A stretch of DNA of 14,480 nt from a virus (taxonomy: Duplodnaviria > Heunggongvirae > Uroviricota > Caudoviricetes): the IMG/VR virus record IMGVR_UViG_2778261572_000004; one strand, written 5' to 3'. Positions within the stretch are counted from its first letter, which is position 1. Each line of letters opens with the position of its first letter. The notes below the pieces were generated by a model that worked only from the letters and a program-made list of their open reading frames with translations, did not search any database and had not been told where the DNA came from. Positions 2,214-12,244 of this stretch are shown here, one piece after another. Both the position numbers and the translations under genes were made by a program.

Positions 2214-2554
2214 CAGTGAGTGACCTCTTCAAAGGTACAGTTAAAATCGGTATACATGGCATTATCCGAAATACTCCACTCCCTGCAGACAACCCGGACG
2301 GTCCTGTTGTATTTTGGCGGACGCCACAAAAAAGCACGCATCCCGGCATGACGGGATAAAAAACTGTCCAGCGCGGCACGGGAATATTCATCTGTGACAC
2401 GAAATACCGGTTTAAACGTTTTCAGATCCGCATTCAGACCACCAGCCCGTCGCTGTTCATATCCGTCACCAAACTTTACCGTAATAACTGATGGCTTTCG
2501 TGTCGTCTCCATCCCCTCACGGGGGATCCAGTTAAAAACTTCAGGCTCAGGCAC
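2213..2554 (-). CDS. M: Minor tail protein M (gpM family)
   Basis: Conserved F.W...GM....PSV..V.FGDGY.QR N-terminal signature of gpM-like proteins. The ORF-track start at 2599 is a TTG. I favour the GTG at 2554-2552, which has a GGAGGA Shine-Dalgarno 7 nt upstream; the in-frame ATG at 2569 is the alternative. Overlaps the 3' end of the tape measure gene. Confidence 0.75.
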   Translation of the reverse strand: MPEPEVFNWIPREGMETTRKPSVITVKFGDGYEQRRAGGLNADLKTFKPVFRVTDEYSRAALDSFLSRHAGMRAFLWRPPKYNRTVRVVCREWSISDNAMYTDFNCTFEEVTH

Positions 2555-5500
2555 TGTACAATCCTCCATCCCGACGCGATGACTGCATAATTGACACAAC
2601 CCTGCTGTCGATCAGATCCACCAGTCCCCTGGCTGAGCGCGCATCTATCTCGCCATTGCTCCCTTGATTCTGAATGCTGATGTGATACACGGGAGAATAA
2701 ACAAATCCACCGCCACCATTCACATTTCCAATGGCCCTGACCCCAAGAGAGCCGTCCGCTGCCCGTGTCAGTGGCATGATTGCTTCAGGCCCGGCCTCGC
2801 CCATCAACCCGGCACCTTTCGCAAAAGCAAAATACGTCGGTGTATCCACAATAGTGTTACTGTAAGCACTCAGATTTGCCGATGTGTAAACACCACCTTT
2901 TGCGTTTGCCACTGCCCCCGAAATCCATCCGCCGACCGTACCAAGCCACCCTCCGGCACCGGAGAGTGATTTCAGTCCGTTAACAATGGCTGCATTCATC
3001 AGAATTTTTGAAACTTCCCGGAGAACTGAACTCCCCCAGTTCCTCCAGTCCACAACATTCCCGGCCAGTGCATCGGAAATATTTGATACCAGCCCGTCCA
3101 TCGTGGAAACGACAGCATCTGCCGCCTGTGAAGCATAATCGGTGGCACTGTCTGCCCAGTTGGTCAGTCCCTCCTGGAGTCCGGCATTCCAGTTATTACG
3201 TAAAGCATCGGCCTTTGCATAATAATTCTGCTGATCGCTGAGACGCTCTTCCAGATATTTTTTATTCAGTTCTTTCTCCTGTTTCCACAGGGCTTCTTCA
3301 ATTTCTCCGGCCTGATACTGTCTCAGCAGCTCGTTATTTTTCTGCTCAAACGTCTGCCGGATACTCCACATTTCCTGGAGTCGTTCACGCATCCGTGAGC
3401 CTTCACCATATCCCAGCAACTGCGCTTCGTCAGATGCCCGGGCACTGGCATTACTGTCCGCCAGACTGCTCTCATACGCAGCAAGCTGCTCACGAATCTT
3501 TTTCTGGTCGATGAGTGCTGCATTCTGCAAAAGCGTTTTTTTCTGCGCTTCTGACAGGGTTGATAATTCGCCCTGACTGACCTGATATTTCATCTTAGCC
3601 AGTTCAGTATTCTGCCCTGCCAGTGCTATCTGTTCTTTTTGCTGTTTAATCAGCCGTTTATAAATATCCTCTGTTTTTTCCGCTTCGGTTTTTTTATGCG
3701 GTTTATTTGCCTGGTTATTTCGCCAGGCATCCAGTGAGTTATTGATATAATTCTGTCTGGCTGTCTGATACGCCTCTCCCACAAAGCCGAGATCATCCGC
3801 AGCATAGCCCAGTCGGGCACGCTCACGCGCTTCCCCCTTCAGGCGGGACAGAGCCAGTTCGCGCTTGCTGTTATTCAGTGCGGTCTGCTGTTTATCATCC
3901 AGGGTTGCCTGTGGTAGCCGTAACGGTACATTCACCAGCCCCTGTCGCTGCTGAAGTAATTCATTACCAAGCCCGAGAAGGCGATTAAACTCGGTATGCT
4001 GCCCATTCATGATCAACAGGGACTGATACGCTTTGTTTTGTTCCGCTGCCTGTTGACGGATCAACGCCACCCGTCGCTCCTCCAGCCTGGCAAGCACATC
4101 CTGAATGGATTGCGCTTTGCCCTGCATTTGAGTGAGACGGGATTGTTCAACTGCCAGTTGATTTGTTGCTTCGGCAAGCCCTTTAAGGATGATTTCAGCA
4201 CCCGAACCACTCTGCGAACTTTCATCAAGCCAACGTTGATAATCAGCAATTTGATTTTTCAGTCCGCGAATTTTTCCTTCCTGTTCGCTAATCAGGCGAT
4301 TTTGTTCCTCCAGTGCCTGCCGCGTCTTTTCCTCATTATCTGACGCTTCAGGAAGCGACATTGCCGACGTTTTCTGGCGAATTTCGTCGATTGTTGCGGC
4401 ATACTGGCGTGCAGATTCTCTGGCCTGCTCCTGATTCTGATACATCGTGTACCAGGCCGCAGCCCCCAGCATGACGAGTCCCGGCACACCACCAACCAGC
4501 CCCAGTGCGCCACTTAATAAACGACTCCCCACTGACGTAACATTATTCAGCGTTGTCTGTGCCGCTGTTCTGGCCGCAATATTACGGGTAAGTGACGCCT
4601 GGGCAGCTGTCAGCTTCGCTTCTGCTGCGGCCTGCCTTTCGGTACCGCGAGCAGCAACAACCGCCTGTTGCGCACGATAAACCGCCGCACGCGCCCTGGC
4701 GGTTGCTATCTGTGTCCCCCGAAGTTGCGCTTCAGCAAGAGCCACTTCGTTTCTGGCTGCAGTAATTAATCCGGCAGTTGCAGATCCAGCAGACGACGCC
4801 ATATTGCCAAAATATCGGGCTACCCCGACGGCAACCAGAGCACCGACAGCGGTTGCCACGGTGTCAATGTTGCCTGCAACACCATTCAGCACCCCGGAGA
4901 GCGCCTTCGTCACTCCGCTTGCCTCGTTCGCACCACCAACCCAGGCCATAAAGGCGTTTTCAACTTTGATTGCAGAGGATGAAACCGTATCAGGCATTGC
5001 TGCATATTCATCACGCAACGCCCCAAGCTGGCTAATCAACGCAGGAACAACCTTATCGGCGGTCAGCTTTCCGTCATCCGCCATGGCCTTCAGATCCTTA
5101 CGGGCAACGCCCATTCCCGCAGCCAGCGCACGAATAACACGATCACCGCTCTCATTCACGGCGTTAAACTCTTCACCACGCAGCACTCCCTGTGCCAGTG
5201 CCTGGCTGAACTGCGTGATCACCGAACTGGCTTCTGCTGCACTGGCGCCGGATAATTTCAGCCCCGTGAAGATCGCCTCGGTGACTTTCAGTACCACCTC
5301 AGAACTGTAACCATACTCTCGCATGGAAGCTGCAGAGCGGGCAAAAAGGCTGGCGTTATCAGAAAAAGCCGTCCCCGTTCTCTGGCTGATTGCCATTAAT
5401 TCACGTTGTGATGCCTGAAAATCATCACTGGACTGCGTGGCCTGCTTCAGACGGGCATTTACTGAACTCCATTCATCCGCAAGAGATATTAGATGTCCAG

Positions 5501-5747
5501 TGGCAAAAGCACCGGCAAATGCCCCCGCCATATTCAGTGCCGAAGACTTCGCCGTATTTATCTGATCCGTCACTTCTGCCAGTGCACGCCGCATTTCACG
5601 GGATGCAGCAGCAGACTGTCGGCCTCCGTTCTGCATGGTGCGGTAGTAATCCTGCCCCATACGCGAAGCCCGGGCGATCTCTGACTGGAATGACCGGGAG
5701 TTTGCCGAGATTTTAATAATCAGTTCACGTAATGTCGCCACACTCAT
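2547..5747 (-). CDS. Tail tape measure protein (about 1066 aa)
   Basis: Very long alanine/glutamine-rich protein with coiled-coil character, a GEEFNAVNE-type N-terminal TMP motif and a glycine-rich hydrophobic C-terminus, in the canonical position between G-T and M. The ORF-track start at 5867 lies inside the upstream gene (different frame) and upstream of a hairpin; the start is placed at the ATG at 5747 (MSVATLRELIIK...), which follows a GGAGA motif. Confidence 0.85.
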   Translation of the reverse strand: MSVATLRELIIKISANSRSFQSEIARASRMGQDYYRTMQNGGRQSAAASREMRRALAEVTDQINTAKSSALNMAGAFAGAFATGHLISLADEWSSVNARLKQATQSSDDFQASQRELMAISQRTGTAFSDNASLFARSAASMREYGYSSEVVLKVTEAIFTGLKLSGASAAEASSVITQFSQALAQGVLRGEEFNAVNESGDRVIRALAAGMGVARKDLKAMADDGKLTADKVVPALISQLGALRDEYAAMPDTVSSSAIKVENAFMAWVGGANEASGVTKALSGVLNGVAGNIDTVATAVGALVAVGVARYFGNMASSAGSATAGLITAARNEVALAEAQLRGTQIATARARAAVYRAQQAVVAARGTERQAAAEAKLTAAQASLTRNIAARTAAQTTLNNVTSVGSRLLSGALGLVGGVPGLVMLGAAAWYTMYQNQEQARESARQYAATIDEIRQKTSAMSLPEASDNEEKTRQALEEQNRLISEQEGKIRGLKNQIADYQRWLDESSQSGSGAEIILKGLAEATNQLAVEQSRLTQMQGKAQSIQDVLARLEERRVALIRQQAAEQNKAYQSLLIMNGQHTEFNRLLGLGNELLQQRQGLVNVPLRLPQATLDDKQQTALNNSKRELALSRLKGEARERARLGYAADDLGFVGEAYQTARQNYINNSLDAWRNNQANKPHKKTEAEKTEDIYKRLIKQQKEQIALAGQNTELAKMKYQVSQGELSTLSEAQKKTLLQNAALIDQKKIREQLAAYESSLADSNASARASDEAQLLGYGEGSRMRERLQEMWSIRQTFEQKNNELLRQYQAGEIEEALWKQEKELNKKYLEERLSDQQNYYAKADALRNNWNAGLQEGLTNWADSATDYASQAADAVVSTMDGLVSNISDALAGNVVDWRNWGSSVLREVSKILMNAAIVNGLKSLSGAGGWLGTVGGWISGAVANAKGGVYTSANLSAYSNTIVDTPTYFAFAKGAGLMGEAGPEAIMPLTRAADGSLGVRAIGNVNGGGGFVYSPVYHISIQNQGSNGEIDARSARGLVDLIDSRVVSIMQSSRRDGGLYSA

Positions 5748-5757
5748 TCTCCGGACG

Positions 5758-5783
5758 AAAAAAAAACCGCCGAAGCGGTTTTT
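5758..5783 (-). terminator. Putative rho-independent terminator downstream of the inserted gene
   Basis: In mRNA sense: AAAAA-CCGC-UUCG-GCGG followed by 9 U. A short GC stem closed by a UUCG tetraloop with flanking A and U runs, immediately 3' of the stop at 5793-5791 and 5' of the tape measure start. Also reads as a weaker hairpin plus T5 on the plus strand. Confidence 0.55.
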
Positions 5784-5790
5784 GTATTCT

Positions 5791-6132
5791 TTAAAGAAGT
5801 CCGGCCTTACGCCTTGCTTCCTGAAGATATTCATCATCCGTTTTTTGTGAAACGGAACTATCTGCATTGCAAATTAAATCACTACCACAATGCTTACATT
5901 TAATAGCCTCTTCTTTGATCAACTCCGCACAGTAAGGGCATTTCTTCATGCCATTGCTTACCATTTGTTGTTCATGTGCCTTCTCATCTCTTTGGATTAC
6001 TAGCGAATGAACCAGAGCAACAATAAAGATCATCGCACCATATACCCACCATCCTAAAAATGAGCGACCTTTGCTTTTCGCAATAATAGCTGGAATTAGT
6101 CCCAAAACTATTGAAATAAGTAAAAATTCCAT
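5791..6132 (-). CDS. Moron-like insert: small inner-membrane protein with two predicted TM helices and a C-terminal CxxC-x(n)-CxxC zinc ribbon; candidate superinfection-exclusion or defence protein
   Basis: 113 aa from the ATG at 6132 (the ORF-track M at 6135 is a TTG): [51 protein letters not shown]...[23 protein letters not shown]... AAGGA Shine-Dalgarno 7 nt upstream. Visibly AT-richer than all flanking genes. Sits between G-T and the tape measure gene, which are normally adjacent. Confidence 0.7.
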
Positions 6133-6149
6133 CAATGTTTCCTTACTTT

Positions 6150-6189: not shown

Positions 6190-6878
6190 TCATCGAGCTG
6201 CAACAAATAATGCCTTCTCAATCTCAGCAAATGGATCTGAGGTGCCTTCTGTCTGCTCCTTCTCCCACTGAAGAAGCGCATCATTCAGTGGCACTTTGAC
6301 CCCCTGCGCACCGTAAACAGCTGAAACAATCTGGGCAGCCCGGATATCAGCCCGTTCGTCCCCCAGCGGGCTGAACCTGTCAAATTCTGCCCACATCATG
6401 ATTTCTGATGCGGACATTTCCCGGCGTAACTCTGACAATGTGCGCCCCATCCTGAGCGCCAGCATCATCAGAAAACGCATCCCCGGAAGCGCTACTTTTT
6501 TTTAACCTCTCCGGCATCACTGATCAGTTCCAGAGACTGGCGAAGAAGCCGGGCATGCACCGGACCATACACGGCAATCACCTGTTCACGATCACCCTCT
6601 GAAAATACGGGTTGCAGCCCGGTATCACATAGAACATCAATGAACAGTTCAACGTCCGCCTCCAGATTTCGGCGGGCACGCTCTGCAACAGATGGCGATG
6701 TATCATCTTCCCTGGCTTTAACGATCTCCTGCCAGCGCAACCAGGCTTCTGCAGAAGGTTCCCGTAACACAACCGTTGCCCCTTCCCATTCAGGCACATC
6801 AACGGTTTTATGGCGAAACCCCGACATCGTTGCCAGTGCCAGATTACGGATATTTTTAGTCATCACACCCATCCTCAT
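6190..6878 (-). CDS. Tail assembly chaperone G-T fusion, produced by programmed -1 ribosomal frameshift near 6495-6504
   Basis: The G frame ends ...GEVKKK-stop (TAG at 6494-6492). The last codons lie in the run GTT AAA AAA AAG. The -1 frame is open from 6501 and continues through VALPG into the 96-aa ORF at 6190..6480 (MRFLMMLALRMGR...). Same gene position and logic as the lambda G/GT frameshift. Confidence 0.8.
6492..6878 (-). CDS. Tail assembly chaperone (gpG-like), unshifted product
   Basis: 128-aa acidic protein directly downstream of the major tail gene and upstream of the tape measure gene, ending in a slippery A-run. The ATG at 6878 overlaps the major tail stop (TAATG); an in-frame ATG at 6863 (MTKNIRNL...) with a GAGG 9 nt upstream is an alternative start. 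Confidence 0.8.
   Translation of the reverse strand: MRMGVMTKNIRNLALATMSGFRHKTVDVPEWEGATVVLREPSAEAWLRWQEIVKAREDDTSPSVAERARRNLEADVELFIDVLCDTGLQPVFSEGDREQVIAVYGPVHARLLRQSLELISDAGEVKKK
6495..6504 (-). other. Slippery heptamer A AAA AAG (8-A run) for the G-T -1 frameshift
   Basis: Plus-strand T8 at 6496-6503; in mRNA sense GTT AAA AAA AAG TAG. Shifting -1 at A AAA AAG enters the downstream ORF frame (codon tops congruent to 0 mod 3). Confidence 0.8.
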
Positions 6879-7582
6879 TAACTGACGGTTACAGTGCAGG
6901 AAGTGGAGGTCACCTTGTTAACCGGGCTTGCAGAATCAGAAATCTCGCAGGTATACGCACCCGCATCACCGGATACTGCTGATGCCTTGCTGAACGTTGC
7001 CGCTGTCTGTCCGGAAACAGGAGAACCACCTTTTTTCCAGGCATAAGAATAAGGCGGCACACCACCCGCAGCCTCAACCACCATTTCGAGTTTCGCTCCG
7101 GCAGAAACCTGCAGCGTGCTGTTTAAATCGACCTTCACTTTCAGCGGCTCTGTCGTCAGCACAGGTTTACCTTTCAGACGCAGGGAAAACGTTGCAGCCA
7201 CAACACCATTGGTTCCTGCAGACCAGGTATGCTGACGCACCTCTGCCATAAAGGTAAATCCGTTGCCTGACGGAAAAATAACTTTAAAGCCATACGTGGT
7301 GTCATTGTCATAGGCACTGCGCAACGCGTTCTGGGCAGCGTTGAGATAAAAGTTTCCTGACATGGAAATCTCTGAAGCAGCCCCAAGACCGTTAATATTT
7401 TCCTGCTCAACAGAACACAGCGTAGTGACATCAATATCCTGCTTTTGTCCAGCGGTAAACTGCACTTCTTTGATTGTACAGCTCAGCCCAAGAAAGCTGG
7501 CAGAATCCAGGGTTTCTGCTGTTACCGGTGCAGACGAAATCATAATTTTCGTCAGTTGCGAACGCTCAAAATTAGAGGACAT
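6878..7582 (-). CDS. Major tail protein with C-terminal Ig-like (Big_2-type) domain
   Basis: 234 aa from the ATG at 7582 (MSSNFERSQLTKIM...), which has an AGGAG Shine-Dalgarno 6 nt upstream. The C-terminal ~80 aa (VKVDLNSTLQVSAGAKLEMVVEAAGGVPPYSYAWKK...YTCEISD...) looks like a bacterial Ig-like domain, as on lambda gpV. The in-frame ATG at 7633 is an alternative but would place the hairpin and U-tract inside the coding sequence. Confidence 0.8.
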   Translation of the reverse strand: MSSNFERSQLTKIMISSAPVTAETLDSASFLGLSCTIKEVQFTAGQKQDIDVTTLCSVEQENINGLGAASEISMSGNFYLNAAQNALRSAYDNDTTYGFKVIFPSGNGFTFMAEVRQHTWSAGTNGVVAATFSLRLKGKPVLTTEPLKVKVDLNSTLQVSAGAKLEMVVEAAGGVPPYSYAWKKGGSPVSGQTAATFSKASAVSGDAGAYTCEISDSASPVNKVTSTSCTVTVS

Positions 7583-7594
7583 ACTCGTCTCCTG

Positions 7595-7620
7595 AAAATA
7601 AAAAACCCGCCAGCGGCGGG
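7595..7620 (-). terminator. Putative intrinsic terminator / attenuator between the neck genes and the major tail gene
   Basis: In mRNA sense: CCCGCC-GCU-GGCGGG (6-bp GC stem) followed by UUUUUUAUUUU. Lies in the intergenic gap just upstream of the major tail gene's SD. Confidence 0.5.
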
Positions 7621-7641
7621 TAGGTAAAATCATTAACGACC

Positions 7642-10374: not shown

Positions 10375-11025
10375 TTAAAATTTAAGATTTTTCAGTGCAT
10401 TCAGTGCGGCATCCACATCCTCAGCATCACGCAGGGATAAAGCGCCATATCCCCCGGCCATGAATGCTTTGGCCTGGGTTCGCGAGAGTCCAACATCGCG
10501 CAGGACCCGCTCAATAATTTTCTGATCAGGGATCTCCCCACGCGCCAGCGCATTTTTCACATCGCTGATGCGTGCTTCATCATTGGAAGGAAACGTCACC
10601 AGACTGACCTCCCACAGGTCGATCTCTTTCAGCAGGAATACCCCTTTTTCCCGATCGTACTCCCAGTCTTTCAGAATGTAGCCAATAGAAAGGCCGGTTA
10701 AAGAACCGGCCTTCATATGGGCATGTGCACGTTTTGCCAGGGGATCATCATCAACGAGTAATCGCCCCCTGACATAAAGCCCGACATCATCTTCTTTCAT
10801 TTCGGTGTACACACCGATGGGCTCATCCATGCGGTGCTGCCAGAGCAACGCAGGCAGCGCCTTTTTTTCGCTCCATTTCTGGAGTGTTGTGGTAAAGGCT
10901 CCGGGGACCACCACATCATCGTGGCTGTCCTTAACACCAAAAACAGAACCGTAACCTTCAAATTCCCCGGAATCACTGACGGATTTCAGGTTCAGCGGTA
11001 TATCAAGACGCTGCTTTGTCTGCAT
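10375..11025 (-). CDS. Prohead maturation protease (HK97 family, S78-like)
   Basis: Contains GYGSVFGVKDSHDDVVVPGAF, typical of HK97-family prohead proteases. Start placed at the ATG at 11025 (MQTKQRLDIP...), which has an AAGGAG Shine-Dalgarno; the ATG at 11055 has none and lies deeper in the portal gene. Confidence 0.85.
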   Translation of the reverse strand: MQTKQRLDIPLNLKSVSDSGEFEGYGSVFGVKDSHDDVVVPGAFTTTLQKWSEKKALPALLWQHRMDEPIGVYTEMKEDDVGLYVRGRLLVDDDPLAKRAHAHMKAGSLTGLSIGYILKDWEYDREKGVFLLKEIDLWEVSLVTFPSNDEARISDVKNALARGEIPDQKIIERVLRDVGLSRTQAKAFMAGGYGALSLRDAEDVDAALNALKNLKF

Positions 11026-12244
11026 CTCCACTCTCCTTTTTCTTACCGTTGTCATCGCCAGCAGAGGGACTGGTGGTCATGTTCATCGGCGTCAGATACA
11101 CATCACCGCCCGGGCGGGGATTCATATCTTCCAGATCACGGCAGTCATTAGGGGAATAAATCCCCCAGTTGATCCCCGTGGCATACGCTTCAAAGCGGGA
11201 TTTCATGTCGCCACGCAACAATGCTCCGGCATTAAATTTGGCGTAAAACTTCCCCTGTTTGCTCTCCCTGACCAGCCCTGTATTGATCCGCTGTTCAATA
11301 CGGGTCAGATACGGCACAAGGGAATAGTTAATGAAGCCAAGCCCCAGCTCTTCAATATTGTTGAAGGTGGCGCGATCGGTGTTCTGCACCATATGCAGCG
11401 GCACGCGGAACAGGCGACAGATTTCTTCCAGCTGAAACTTGCGGGTTTCCAGGAACTGGCTGTCCTCGGCATTCAGTGCCACCGGCTTCCAGTCCAGCCC
11501 CATTTCCAGAATCATCGGACGGTGCGCATTACCCAGCCCAAGATGCCGCTCCTCAAAATCCCTCTTCATGCGCTCATAAGCATCCGGCGTGAGCTTTTGT
11601 TCCGTACGCAACACACCGGATGTCACTGCACCGTTACCAAACAACCTGGCGCCGTGCTCCTCAGTTGCCGCTGCCAGTGAAATGGCCTCACGCGCATACG
11701 CAATGGGATTCAGCCCGACCAGTCCGTCCAGCGTCAGAGTGCGCACATGCCAGATTTCATTCTGGGTCAGCACATCCACGGAGCCATCCGGAAACGTCAC
11801 CTGATAAACCGGCTGCCACTGGCTGTTCAGCTTCGGTTCCACACAGCCCGGATCTATCGGAAGAAGCTCCACAACTTCCCCCAGAGCCTTTACCTTGTAG
11901 GCGTAAAAATTACCCCGCAGACACAGGCAGACGATAACCAGTTCCCAGAATTCCTGCGGCGTCATGTAGCCATTGGGTTTTGCCGAAATCAGCTTATGCA
12001 GCCGTTCATCCACCGCCCGTGTTTTAAGGGTGCCGCTGATTTTGTAGAGACTGCAGGGCAGCATACCAACAGACTCAGCCAGCACCCTGACGCAGGAATA
12101 CACCGCCGTCAGCCGCATGGCCCGCTGGCTGCTGATCCGCTTTCCGGTATAGGTGTCGTATGACAACCCCAGCTCTTCCGCAAGCATCCCGGGCGTTGTG
12201 ACGGGGGTGTTATTTTTGCGTTGAAAAAGCCCCTGGAAAAACAT
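11003..12244 (-). CDS. Portal protein (HK97 family)
   Basis: 413-aa ORF between terminase and protease with a portal-like sequence (...AVYSCVRVLAESVGMLP... and an acidic C-terminus). GGAGGTGA Shine-Dalgarno upstream; the start overlaps the stop of the small upstream ORF. Confidence 0.9.
   Translation of the reverse strand: MFFQGLFQRKNNTPVTTPGMLAEELGLSYDTYTGKRISSQRAMRLTAVYSCVRVLAESVGMLPCSLYKISGTLKTRAVDERLHKLISAKPNGYMTPQEFWELVIVCLCLRGNFYAYKVKALGEVVELLPIDPGCVEPKLNSQWQPVYQVTFPDGSVDVLTQNEIWHVRTLTLDGLVGLNPIAYAREAISLAAATEEHGARLFGNGAVTSGVLRTEQKLTPDAYERMKRDFEERHLGLGNAHRPMILEMGLDWKPVALNAEDSQFLETRKFQLEEICRLFRVPLHMVQNTDRATFNNIEELGLGFINYSLVPYLTRIEQRINTGLVRESKQGKFYAKFNAGALLRGDMKSRFEAYATGINWGIYSPNDCRDLEDMNPRPGGDVYLTPMNMTTSPSAGDDNGKKKESGDADKAAS

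What the first reader, a model, noticed from the sequence alone, without database searches (positions are those of the whole stretch)
6190..6878. Programmed -1 frameshift joining the tail chaperone to the downstream ORF (G-T), directly readable in the sequence
The chaperone ORF ends ...GEVKKK-stop, and its last codons lie in an 8-A run (GTT AAA AAA AAG TAG). The -1 frame is open from within that run and continues for about 100 codons, passing through the listed 96-aa ORF (6190..6480). This is the conserved G/GT arrangement of long-tailed phages, and it means the 96-aa ORF is probably not an independent gene but the C-terminal extension of a low-abundance fusion protein of about 229 aa.
Basis: partly seen in the sequence, partly recalled or inferred. 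Interest (0 to 1): 0.5.

Follow-up and report, generated by a model that had tools for sequence, protein, structure and literature searches.

The report
Phage tail chaperone G/GT frameshift site
This is the standard programmed -1 ribosomal frameshift that lets an HK97-like E. coli prophage make both a short tail-assembly chaperone and a longer chaperone-plus-T fusion from one stretch of mRNA; it is real, but it is an ordinary, well-known feature.

Summary
On the minus strand, the chaperone ORF (best start ATG 6863, stop TAG 6494..6492) ends GTT AAA AAA AAG TAG. The -1 frame is closed by TAA at 6504..6502 and open from 6501 to the stop at 6190. The only place a -1 shift can join the two frames is therefore the heptamer A_AAA_AAG (6501..6495).

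The predicted 224-aa fusion carries Pfam Phage_TAC_1 (9e-57) and Phage_tail_T (1.8e-19). It aligns without gaps at 63% identity to phage HK97 gp14, whose GenBank note reads "translated due to a -1 frameshift".

T lies in the -1 frame in 123 of 131 related loci (41-100% G identity). After thinning to 33 representatives, every one keeps A_AAG or A_AAA at the same lysine codon. Some have only 3-4 A's there. Third-position entropy falls from 1.4-2.0 bits to 0-0.7 bits at the site.

The ATG at 6480 is ATG in only 9 of 33 representatives and has no properly spaced Shine-Dalgarno. The -1-frame linker (V-x-x-P-G...FLM) is still conserved as protein.

I found no conserved stimulatory RNA structure. Protein-level proof is lacking.

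Verdict: interpretation supported, already known, low interest. The practical value is an annotation fix, because RefSeq lists G and T as separate genes.

The parts
6492..6863 (-). Gene G: tail assembly chaperone, 123 aa plus stop TAG (6494..6492). An alternative upstream ATG at 6878 would give 128 aa but is unlikely.
   Evidence: The ORF and its translation are. It matches PF06222 Phage_TAC_1 at 9e-57 and phrog_344 'tail assembly chaperone' at 2.6e-44. It matches PDB 2ob9, which is HK97 gp13, at 1.8e-48. The Shine-Dalgarno duplex is -9.0 kcal/mol for ATG 6863 against +0.9 for ATG 6878. PGAP uses the 123-aa start.
6495..6501 (-). Slippery heptamer A_AAA_AAG in X_XXY_YYZ register; zero-frame codons are AAA 6500-6498 and AAG 6497-6495. 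It is the only segment where both frames are open.
   Evidence: The -1-frame stop TAA is at 6504-6502 and the zero-frame stop TAG at 6494-6492, so the frames overlap by 7 nt. The motif is A_AAA_AAG in 84 of 106 unique related G-T sequences and carries an A_AAG or A_AAA core in all of them. Third-position entropy is 0.68, 0.00 and 0.33 bits at the last three codons, against 1.4-2.0 bits at the six codons before them.
6496..6503 (-). Run of eight A's that contains the slippery site. It could in principle also support RNA-polymerase slippage.
   Evidence: The run length varies in a few relatives: A7 in L053, L100 and L106, and A9 in L047.
6190..6495 (-). The T segment, read in the -1 frame after the shift: 101 codons (VALPG-MRFLMM...VAAR) plus stop TGA 6192..6190. 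The predicted GT product is join(6863..6495, 6495..6190) = 224 aa.
   Evidence: The translation is. It matches PF06223 Phage_tail_T at 1.8e-19, phrog_337 at 2.5e-38 and phrog_14766 at 4.2e-39. The fusion aligns gaplessly at 63% identity with the HK97 gp14 fusion.
6481..6495 (-). Linker codons GTA GCG CTT CCG GGG (V-A-L-P-G), which lie upstream of the first ATG of the T frame. They can be translated only by ribosomes arriving from G.
   Evidence: The -1-frame linker is conserved as V-x-x-P-G/x...F-L-M across divergent relatives. The zero frame ends 0, 1, 4, 5, 8 or 11 codons after the site in different lineages.
6878..7633 (-). Upstream neighbour: major tail (tube) protein with a C-terminal Ig-like domain. 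The real start is probably internal, near 7582.
   Evidence: Pfam gives Ig_2 and Ig_3 hits and weak Phage_TTP_11 and Phage_tail_2 hits. RefSeq and GenBank annotate it as 'major tail' or 'immunoglobulin domain-containing protein'.
2547..5741 (-). Downstream neighbour: tail tape measure protein. The PGAP-type GTG start is at about 5741; the mechanical ORF list extends it to 5867.
   Evidence: It matches PF06120 Phage_HK97_TLTM at 3.3e-83, TMP_3 at 1.1e-54 and Tape_meas_lam_C at 1.9e-13.

Best explanation
This is the G/GT recoding site of an HK97-like siphovirus prophage of Escherichia coli.

Most ribosomes translate the chaperone gene (6863..6492, minus strand) to the TAG stop and release the 123-aa gpG-type tail assembly chaperone.

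A minority slip one base backwards. This happens when tRNA-Lys occupies AAA (P site) and AAG (A site) of A_AAA_AAG (6501..6495), and the tRNAs re-pair with AAA AAA. Those ribosomes then read GTA GCG CTT CCG GGG ATG... in the -1 frame as far as 6190. The product is a 224-aa G-T fusion.

By analogy with lambda, the G part (free and within GT) coats the tape measure protein. The T part recruits the major tail protein, so the tube polymerises around the tape measure. Neither G nor GT ends up in the virion.

What is shown here:
- the sequence anatomy;
- the domain content of the fusion;
- homology to HK97 gp13/gp14;
- conservation of the frame arrangement and of the shift site at synonymous positions.

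What is inferred:
- that the shift is ribosomal;
- that its efficiency is low;
- the chaperone mechanism.
For: **1. Anatomy.** The two frames overlap only over the heptamer, which is bracketed by a -1-frame TAA and a zero-frame TAG.

**2. Domains.** The fusion carries PF06222 and PF06223, both far above their gathering scores. The 224-position phrog_14766 profile spans both halves.

**3. Orthology.**
- G matches PDB 2ob9, which is HK97 gp13, at 1.8e-48.
- The fusion is 63% identical to the HK97 gp14 fusion, without gaps, and both are 224 aa.

**4. Synteny.** The order is major tail protein, G, T, (moron), tape measure protein.

**5. Comparative evidence.**
- T is in the -1 frame in 123 of 131 loci.
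- All 106 unique sequences carry A_AAA_AAG (84), G_GAA_AAG (13), GCA_AAG (7) or A_AAA_AAA (2) at the same lysine codon.
- Among 33 representatives under 90% identity, the last codon is AAG in 31 (E. coli uses AAG for about 24% of lysines, PMC3296357 Table 2) and the preceding base is A in all 33. Third positions of the six codons upstream are nearly random.

**6. Ribosomal rather than transcriptional.** Relatives with only 3-4 A's keep the same arrangement.

**7. T is not independent.**
- The ATG at 6480 is ATG in 9 of 33 representatives.
- The Shine-Dalgarno-like GGGG abuts ATG 6480 with zero spacing, and sits 11 and 14 nt before ATG 6468 and 6465, at only -4.5 to -5.7 kcal/mol.
- The linker V-x-x-P-G upstream of the ATG is conserved in the -1 frame.

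**8. Literature.**
- A_AAA_AAG is among the most shift-prone sequences in E. coli and is the dnaX shift site.
- G-T frameshifting is widely conserved in long-tailed dsDNA phages.
- In lambda, the gpG:gpGT ratio of about 30:1 is required for tail assembly (PMC5009743; PMC3296357).
Against: - There is no protein, ribosome-profiling or reporter evidence for this locus. The efficiency and even the occurrence of the shift are inferred.
- No stimulatory element was found. The downstream fold is not better than shuffles (z -1.5 and -0.1).
- The only conserved hairpin, GCGCUC-N6-GGGCGC, lies about 38 nt downstream. It shows no useful covariation (covariation term 0.11) and encodes the conserved A-L-R-M-G-R.
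- The upstream GGAG (GGA GAG) is replaced by GGC or GGT in close relatives.
- An internal Met (F-L-M, ATG 6468) is conserved in nearly all relatives, and PGAP uses it as the T start. Some independent initiation of a shorter T cannot be excluded.
- An 8-A run could also allow RNA-polymerase slippage, which would give the same protein.
- A few relatives have A7, A6 or A9 runs that break the -1 arrangement.
Confidence: 0.88

Rival explanations
1. The fusion arises by transcriptional slippage. RNA polymerase stutters on the run of eight A's (T's in the template) and adds one A to a fraction of mRNAs. Ordinary translation of those mRNAs then gives ...GEVKKK-VALPG..., the same GT protein as a -1 ribosomal shift.
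For: - The run is 8 A's long; L125 and L126 have 9 A's and L050 has 9.
- Inserting one A gives exactly the same amino-acid sequence, as can be read directly from the sequence.
- Bacterial RNA polymerase slips efficiently on runs of 9 A's or T's, and Thermus dnaX uses this (PMC5009743).
Against: - Eight is below the 9-base run for which efficient slippage is documented (PMC5009743).
- Homologues keep the same -1 arrangement and the same shift codon with only 3-4 A's: HK97-type CGG GAA AAG and Klebsiella/Pantoea-type GCA AAG. The family-wide mechanism therefore cannot depend on a long A run.
- What is conserved is the register-specific A_AAG ending in G. That matters for tRNA-Lys re-pairing, not for polymerase slippage.
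Confidence: 0.07
2. G and T are two separate genes, as RefSeq and GenBank annotate them. T would be translated on its own from ATG 6480 (96 aa) or ATG 6468 (92 aa), and the slippery sequence would be incidental.
For: - The ORF 6190..6480 starts with ATG.
- PGAP calls a 92-aa 'phage tail assembly protein T' from ATG 6468 in 899 complete E. coli genomes.
- The Met of F-L-M is conserved in almost all relatives.
- A G-rich stretch (GGGGA) lies 11 nt upstream of ATG 6468.
Against: - ATG 6480 is replaced by ATT, ATA, ACN, GGN and others in 24 of 33 representatives.
- The Shine-Dalgarno-like pairing is weak (-4.5 to -5.7 kcal/mol) and mis-spaced (0, 11 or 14 nt), against -9.0 for G.
- The codons between the heptamer and the ATG are conserved as protein in the -1 frame. 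They would be untranslated under this model.
- Synonymous sites of the heptamer are frozen.
- HK97 and lambda precedent: no free T is reported for lambda, and GT is required (PMC5009743).
Confidence: 0.04
3. The frame break is an artefact or a mutation: a homopolymer sequencing error or a decayed prophage. The true gene would be a single in-frame G-T ORF, or a dead one.
For: - Rare single-ORF G-T proteins exist in databases (P0001-P0003).
- Homopolymer length differs in a few relatives: A7 in L053, L100 and L106, and A9 in L047.
Against: - The A8 version recurs in about 100 independently assembled loci and the -1 arrangement in 123 of 131 loci. The junction region is present, and annotated as two CDSs in all listed hits, in 899 complete E. 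coli genomes.
- P0001 and P0003, each from a single contig, carry additional frame errors; P0002 is likewise from a single contig.
- Distant relatives with different slippery motifs keep the same break.
- Both ORFs are intact and conserved.
Confidence: 0.01

Closest known systems
Phage HK97 gp13 / gp14 (tail assembly chaperone and its -1 frameshift extension; GenBank AF069529; gp13 structure PDB 2ob9)
   Same: - It is an orthologue: the fusion is 63% identical over all 224 residues without gaps.
- It has the same Pfam families and the same gene order, including a moron slot before the tape measure gene.
- The shift occurs at the same aligned lysine codon.
   Different: - The shift motif differs. 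HK97 has CGG GAA AAG (G_GAA_AAG, 4 A's), and its zero frame runs on for 5 codons (SQPPA*).
- The window has A_AAA_AAG (8 A's) with the stop codon immediately after it.
- The moron that follows T is unrelated to HK97 gp15.
Phage lambda gpG / gpGT (Levin, Hendrix and Casjens 1993; Xu, Hendrix and Duda 2004, 2013, 2014; as reviewed in PMC5009743)
   Same: [quoted passage not shown]
- tRNA-Lys decodes AAG at the A-site codon.
- The T part belongs to the lambda T family (PF06223).
- No known RNA-structure stimulator exists in either case.
   Different: - Lambda's heptamer is G_GGA_AAG (PMC3296357).
- The G part here belongs to Pfam Phage_TAC_1 (PF06222, HK97 type), and no other chaperone family scored in the Pfam scan.
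- The ratio and function have been shown experimentally for lambda only.
E. coli dnaX gamma/tau -1 frameshift
   Same: It has the identical heptamer A_AAA_AAG, decoded by the single E. coli tRNA-Lys (PMC5009743).
   Different: - dnaX reaches about 50% efficiency with the help of an upstream Shine-Dalgarno-like element and a downstream stem-loop. Neither is conserved or detectable here.
- In dnaX the shifted frame terminates at once and gives the shorter product. Here it gives the longer product.
Thermus thermophilus dnaX and IS-element transcriptional slippage on A/T runs
   Same: A homopolymeric A run sits at the junction of two frames, and one extra A would give the fusion.
   Different: The run here has 8 bases, not 9 or more. 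Homologues with 3-4 A's keep the arrangement.

Membership tests
Long-tailed phage G/GT tail assembly chaperone frameshift (lambda/HK97 type) | Two ORFs lie between the major tail protein gene and the tape measure gene. | tested here: met
   The order on the minus strand is major tail protein (6878..7633), G (6863..6492), T (6495..6190), moron, then tape measure protein (about 5741..2547).
Long-tailed phage G/GT tail assembly chaperone frameshift (lambda/HK97 type) | The downstream ORF is in the -1 frame relative to the upstream one, overlaps its 3' end, and has no stop between the shift site and the T domain. | tested here: met
   The overlap is 7 nt, and the -1 frame is open from 6501 to 6190. 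The same arrangement holds in 123 of 131 related loci.
Long-tailed phage G/GT tail assembly chaperone frameshift (lambda/HK97 type) | A slippery sequence in the correct register lies inside the overlap. | tested here: met
   A_AAA_AAG lies at 6501..6495 in X_XXY_YYZ register. It is conserved at synonymous sites.
Long-tailed phage G/GT tail assembly chaperone frameshift (lambda/HK97 type) | Sequence membership of both halves in chaperone and T protein families. | tested here: met
   PF06222 scores 190.8 bits (cut-off 25) and PF06223 scores 70.4 bits (cut-off 25.9). The match to PDB 2ob9 (HK97 gp13) is 1.8e-48. Identity to HK97 gp14 is 63%.
Long-tailed phage G/GT tail assembly chaperone frameshift (lambda/HK97 type) | Both G and GT are made, at a fixed ratio with G in large excess, and both are required for tail assembly yet absent from virions. 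| not testable with these tools
   This needs protein detection and genetics. It is known for lambda only (PMC5009743, PMC3296357).
dnaX-type stimulated -1 frameshift cassette | A_AAA_AAG shift heptamer. | tested here: met
dnaX-type stimulated -1 frameshift cassette | A conserved Shine-Dalgarno-like stimulator upstream and a stable stem-loop a few nucleotides downstream. | tested here: not met
   The upstream GGAG is not conserved; close relatives have GGC or GGT there. The downstream folds are no better than shuffles (z -1.5 and -0.1). The only consensus hairpin lies about 38 nt away and lacks covariation.
Programmed transcriptional slippage | A homopolymeric run of about 9 or more A's or T's at the frame junction, conserved as a run. 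| tested here: not met
   The run is 8 A's here. Homologues have 3, 4, 6 or 7 A's with the same frame arrangement. The threshold comes from PMC5009743.

The most novel reading that the evidence does not exclude
The most novel reading that the evidence leaves open concerns the A8 tract with its abutting TAG stop, which might do more than host a lambda-like low-level ribosomal shift. It could combine ribosomal slippage with some RNA-polymerase slippage and a 'shifty stop' effect, so that the GT:G ratio is set differently from lambda or HK97 and responds to RF1 or tRNA-Lys modification status. Alternatively, the A7/A8/A9 length variants seen in relatives could be real, heritable on/off switches of tail assembly in prophage populations rather than sequencing errors.
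Probability: 0.08. Interest if true: 0.3.

Novelty: already known. Interest (0 to 1): 0.1.

Why it matters
Scientifically it adds little. The G/GT frameshift is a textbook recoding event, and this locus is an orthologue of the annotated HK97 case.

Its practical value is for annotation:
- All database records inspected here for this prophage family list G and T as two independent CDSs; the junction occurs in 899 complete RefSeq E. coli genomes, annotated as two CDSs in all 12 hits listed.
- PGAP starts T at an internal ATG, so the real 224-aa GT product is missing from protein databases.
- The comparative series collected here gives a compact natural data set on which shift sites this chaperone family tolerates. 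At one aligned lysine codon it contains A_AAA_AAG, G_GAA_AAG, GCA_AAG and A_AAA_AAA, with the stop 0 to 11 codons downstream.

Tried and rejected
1. **Downstream stimulatory structure.** I folded 6503..6400 and 6495..6440. The z-scores were -1.5 and -0.1, no better than shuffles. RNAalifold on 14 divergent homologues found only a 6-bp hairpin about 38 nt downstream. It has essentially no covariation and coincides with the conserved codons A-L-R-M-G-R. Rejected as a stimulator.

2. **Upstream Shine-Dalgarno-like stimulator.** The GGAGAGG at 6512..6506 varies at synonymous positions in close relatives. Rejected.

3. **Heptamer frequency as evidence.** AAAAAAG is not over-represented in the window: 5 copies against 2.9 expected. 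The argument therefore rests on register, position and conservation.

4. **Database single-ORF G-T fusions as 'Rosetta stone' evidence.** P0001-P0003 come from single contigs, and P0001 and P0003 contain further frame errors. I treat them as sequencing indels and give them no weight.

5. **ATG 6878 as the G start.** Rejected in favour of ATG 6863.

6. **NCBIfam.** No model matches the fusion.

7. **Primary literature.** Xu et al. 2004 was not available by PubMed id. I relied instead on the Atkins et al. 2016 review (PMC5009743) and on PMC3296357.

8. **Similarity of the inserted zinc-ribbon ORF to HK97 gp15.** None was found.
Full report
**1. The observation**

Reading the minus strand, the ORF listed as 6492..6878 ends ...GAG GTT AAA AAA AAG TAG. 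Its translation ends ...SDAGEVKKK*.
- The eight A's occupy 6503..6496.
- The zero-frame stop TAG is at 6494..6492.
- Translating 6504..6190 in the -1 register gives *KKVALPGMRFLMMLALRMGRT...FVAAR*.
- So the -1 frame has a stop (TAA, 6504..6502) immediately before the last two lysine codons. It is then open for 103 codons to the stop at 6192..6190, running through the 96-aa ORF 6190..6480.

The two frames are both open only across 6501..6495. That segment is exactly A_AAA_AAG in X_XXY_YYZ register.

The heptamer by itself is not statistically remarkable, with 5 copies in the window against 2.9 +/- 1.7 expected. Its register, its position and its conservation are what make it remarkable.

**2. 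Gene boundaries**

The upstream ATG at 6878 overlaps the stop of the major tail gene, but it has no Shine-Dalgarno (duplex +0.9 kcal/mol). ATG 6863 is preceded by GAGGA at a good spacing (-9.0 kcal/mol). Several other lines agree with 6863:
- The Pfam chaperone profile starts at residue 6 of the long version.
- Homologues begin at the equivalent of 6863.
- PGAP calls a 123-aa protein.

G is therefore 123 aa. The frameshift product join(6863..6495, 6495..6190) is 224 aa, not about 229.

**3. What the proteins are**

- The fusion matches PF06222 Phage_TAC_1 (9e-57, full profile) and PF06223 Phage_tail_T (1.8e-19, 70.4 bits against a cut-off of 25.9).
- In PHROGs, G hits 'tail assembly chaperone' families. 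Both halves hit phrog_14766, a 224-position profile: G covers positions 1-121 and T covers 129-222.
- The only solved relative is PDB 2ob9 (1.8e-48), which is identical to HK97 gp13.
- The neighbours are a major tail protein with a C-terminal Ig domain upstream and an HK97/lambda-type tape measure protein downstream.
- The region is an E. coli prophage. About 900 of 5,426 complete E. coli genomes carry it at 95-99% identity, always on the chromosome. So do 11 Escherichia phage records.

**4. Relation to the known case**

A tblastn search of the fusion against phage genomes finds it in two pieces in 230 records, including HK97.
- In the HK97 GenBank record, gp13 is 'tail assembly chaperone'.
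- mEpX1 carries the same note on a separately annotated T CDS, and Burkholderia phage KS9 annotates a joined CDS.
- I built the HK97 fusion by shifting at the aligned lysine codon and compared it with the window's fusion. The result is 63% identity over 224 of 224 residues with no gaps, E 4e-108.

This is an orthologue of a described recoding event.

**5. Comparative test of the mechanism**

I collected 46 loci from one-genome-per-species bacterial genomes and 80 from IMG/VR using a G-protein alignment. I added the annotated phage and E. coli loci.

*Frame arrangement.*
- T lies in the -1 frame relative to G in 123 of 131 loci, from 100% down to 41% G identity (Escherichia to Orbus and Zophobihabitans).
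- Burkholderia phage KS9, added afterwards, extends this to 30% G identity.

*Shift motif.* Among 106 unique G-T nucleotide sequences, the aligned last lysine codon and its context are as follows:

| Motif | Sequences | Notes |
|---|---|---|
| A_AAA_AAG | 84 | |
| G_GAA_AAG | 13 | HK97 type |
| GCA_AAG | 7 | |
| A_AAA_AAA | 2 | |

*Synonymous-site conservation.* After thinning to 33 representatives under 90% identity:
- The final codon is AAG in 31 and AAA in 2. E. coli uses AAG for about 24% of lysines (PMC3296357).
- The base before it is A in all 33.
- Third-position entropy is 0.68, 0.00 and 0.33 bits at the last three codons, against 1.38-1.98 bits at the six preceding codons.

*Where each frame ends.* The zero frame ends 0, 1, 4, 5, 8 or 11 codons after the site in different lineages. 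The -1 frame consistently encodes V-x-x-P-G/x...F-L-M-x-L-A-L-R-x-G-R/K-T.

These patterns are what selection on a ribosomal A_AAG slip and on translation of the -1 frame from that point would produce.

**6. Is T an independent gene?**

- The ATG at 6480 is ATG in only 9 of 33 representatives. It is ATT or ATA in relatives with 76-94% G identity and ACN or GGN in distant ones.
- Its only Shine-Dalgarno-like sequence (GGGG, which encodes the conserved Pro-Gly) abuts the ATG. The same stretch lies 11 and 14 nt before ATG 6468 and 6465, with weak pairing.
- The five codons between the heptamer and ATG 6480 are conserved as protein.
- The conserved Met of F-L-M (6468) is the start PGAP uses. Low-level internal initiation there cannot be excluded, but nothing supports it.

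**7. Stimulators**

None was found.
- The folds downstream are not better than shuffles.
- The alignment fold gives one 6-bp hairpin about 38 nt downstream. It lacks covariation and coincides with conserved codons.
- The upstream GGAG varies synonymously in close relatives.
- In the window and many relatives the stop codon follows the heptamer directly. That is a classical 'shifty stop' context (Weiss et al. 1987, cited in PMC5009743). It is not conserved across the family, so it is not essential.

**8. Rivals**

*Transcriptional slippage* on the A8 run would give the same protein. Three points count against it as the main mechanism:
- Efficient slippage is documented for runs of 9 (PMC5009743).
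- Homologues with 3-4 A's keep the arrangement.
- The conserved feature is register-specific.

*Sequencing error or pseudogene* is excluded by recurrence in over a hundred independent assemblies. The rare fused ORFs in databases (P0001-P0003) each come from a single contig, and P0001 and P0003 carry additional frame errors.

A few relatives have runs one A shorter or longer. L053, L100 and L106 have A7, L028 has A6 where its relatives have A7, and L047 has A9 and is fused. These are either homopolymer errors or real indels, and I could not tell which.

**9. How it most likely works**

- *Shown:* the anatomy, the domains, orthology to HK97 gp13/gp14, and evolutionary conservation of the site and frame.
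- *Inferred from established knowledge* (lambda: Levin et al. 1993; Xu et al. 2004, 2013, 2014; reviewed in PMC5009743):
  - A minority of ribosomes slip -1 on A_AAA_AAG with tRNA-Lys and produce GT.
  - G and the G part of GT bind the tape measure protein.
  - The T part recruits the major tail protein.
  - Both leave before the tail is complete.
  - The G:GT ratio matters.
- *Not shown:* the actual efficiency here is unknown. A_AAA_AAG is intrinsically very shift-prone in E. coli, so the efficiency could differ from lambda's roughly 3-4%.

**10. Verdict**

The feature is already known: it is an orthologue of an annotated case in a family where the frameshift is textbook. Interest is low.

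The useful outcome is an annotation correction. None of the GenBank/RefSeq records inspected for this prophage family annotates the 224-aa GT product.

Noticed in passing
window 5762..6135 (minus strand): ORF 5791..6132/6135 and hairpin 5783..5762: A low-GC (33-40%) insert sits between the T stop and the tape-measure start. It encodes a 113/114-aa protein with a hydrophobic N-terminus and a C-terminal zinc ribbon (PF13248 1e-8; phrog_8436 2e-50, function unknown), followed by a terminator-like hairpin with a T-run. It occupies the same slot as the HK97 gp15 moron, a superinfection-exclusion protein (PMC3594210), but shows no sequence similarity to it. Only 44 of the 903 E. coli genomes with this tail module cover at least 80% of the query and so appear to carry it, and all 11 matching phage records lack about 22% of the query in two-piece alignments, consistent with its absence. 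It is a candidate prophage-expressed membrane moron, possibly an exclusion or defence function.
   Followed up: partly
window 10861..10867 (minus strand), inside ORF 10375..11055: A second A_AAA_AAG in the shift-prone X_XXY_YYZ register lies inside the 226-aa ORF between the portal-sized and capsid-sized ORFs (the prohead-protease position). The -1 frame closes after 12 codons (GAACVALAAPHG*), so a shift would only truncate the protein. It is probably incidental.
   Followed up: partly
L053, L100, L106 (about 2860..2870), L028, L047 (about 2855..2865): The homopolymer length varies at the slippery site in relatives. Three close IMG/VR relatives have A7, which puts T in the +1 frame. L028 has one A fewer than its relatives. 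The endosymbiont Candidatus Symbiopectobacterium endolongispinus has A9, which fuses G and T in frame. These are either sequencing errors or real indels that would abolish the G:GT balance.
   Followed up: partly
window 6468..6190 and 5741..5867; L001: There are annotation issues in public records. PGAP starts 'phage tail assembly protein T' at the internal ATG 6468 (92 aa) and never joins it to G. One phage record (ON470580) splits T into two 'tail assembly chaperone' CDSs. The mechanical ORF for the tape measure protein (start 5867) runs upstream through the moron terminator, whereas the annotated start corresponds to GTG at about 5741.
   Followed up: partly
window 6878..7633 (minus strand): The major tail protein carries a C-terminal Ig-like domain (Ig_2 and Ig_3 hits at residues 171-250), as in many lambdoid tail tube proteins. 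Its stop TAA overlaps the unused ATG at 6878 (TAATG).
   Followed up: no
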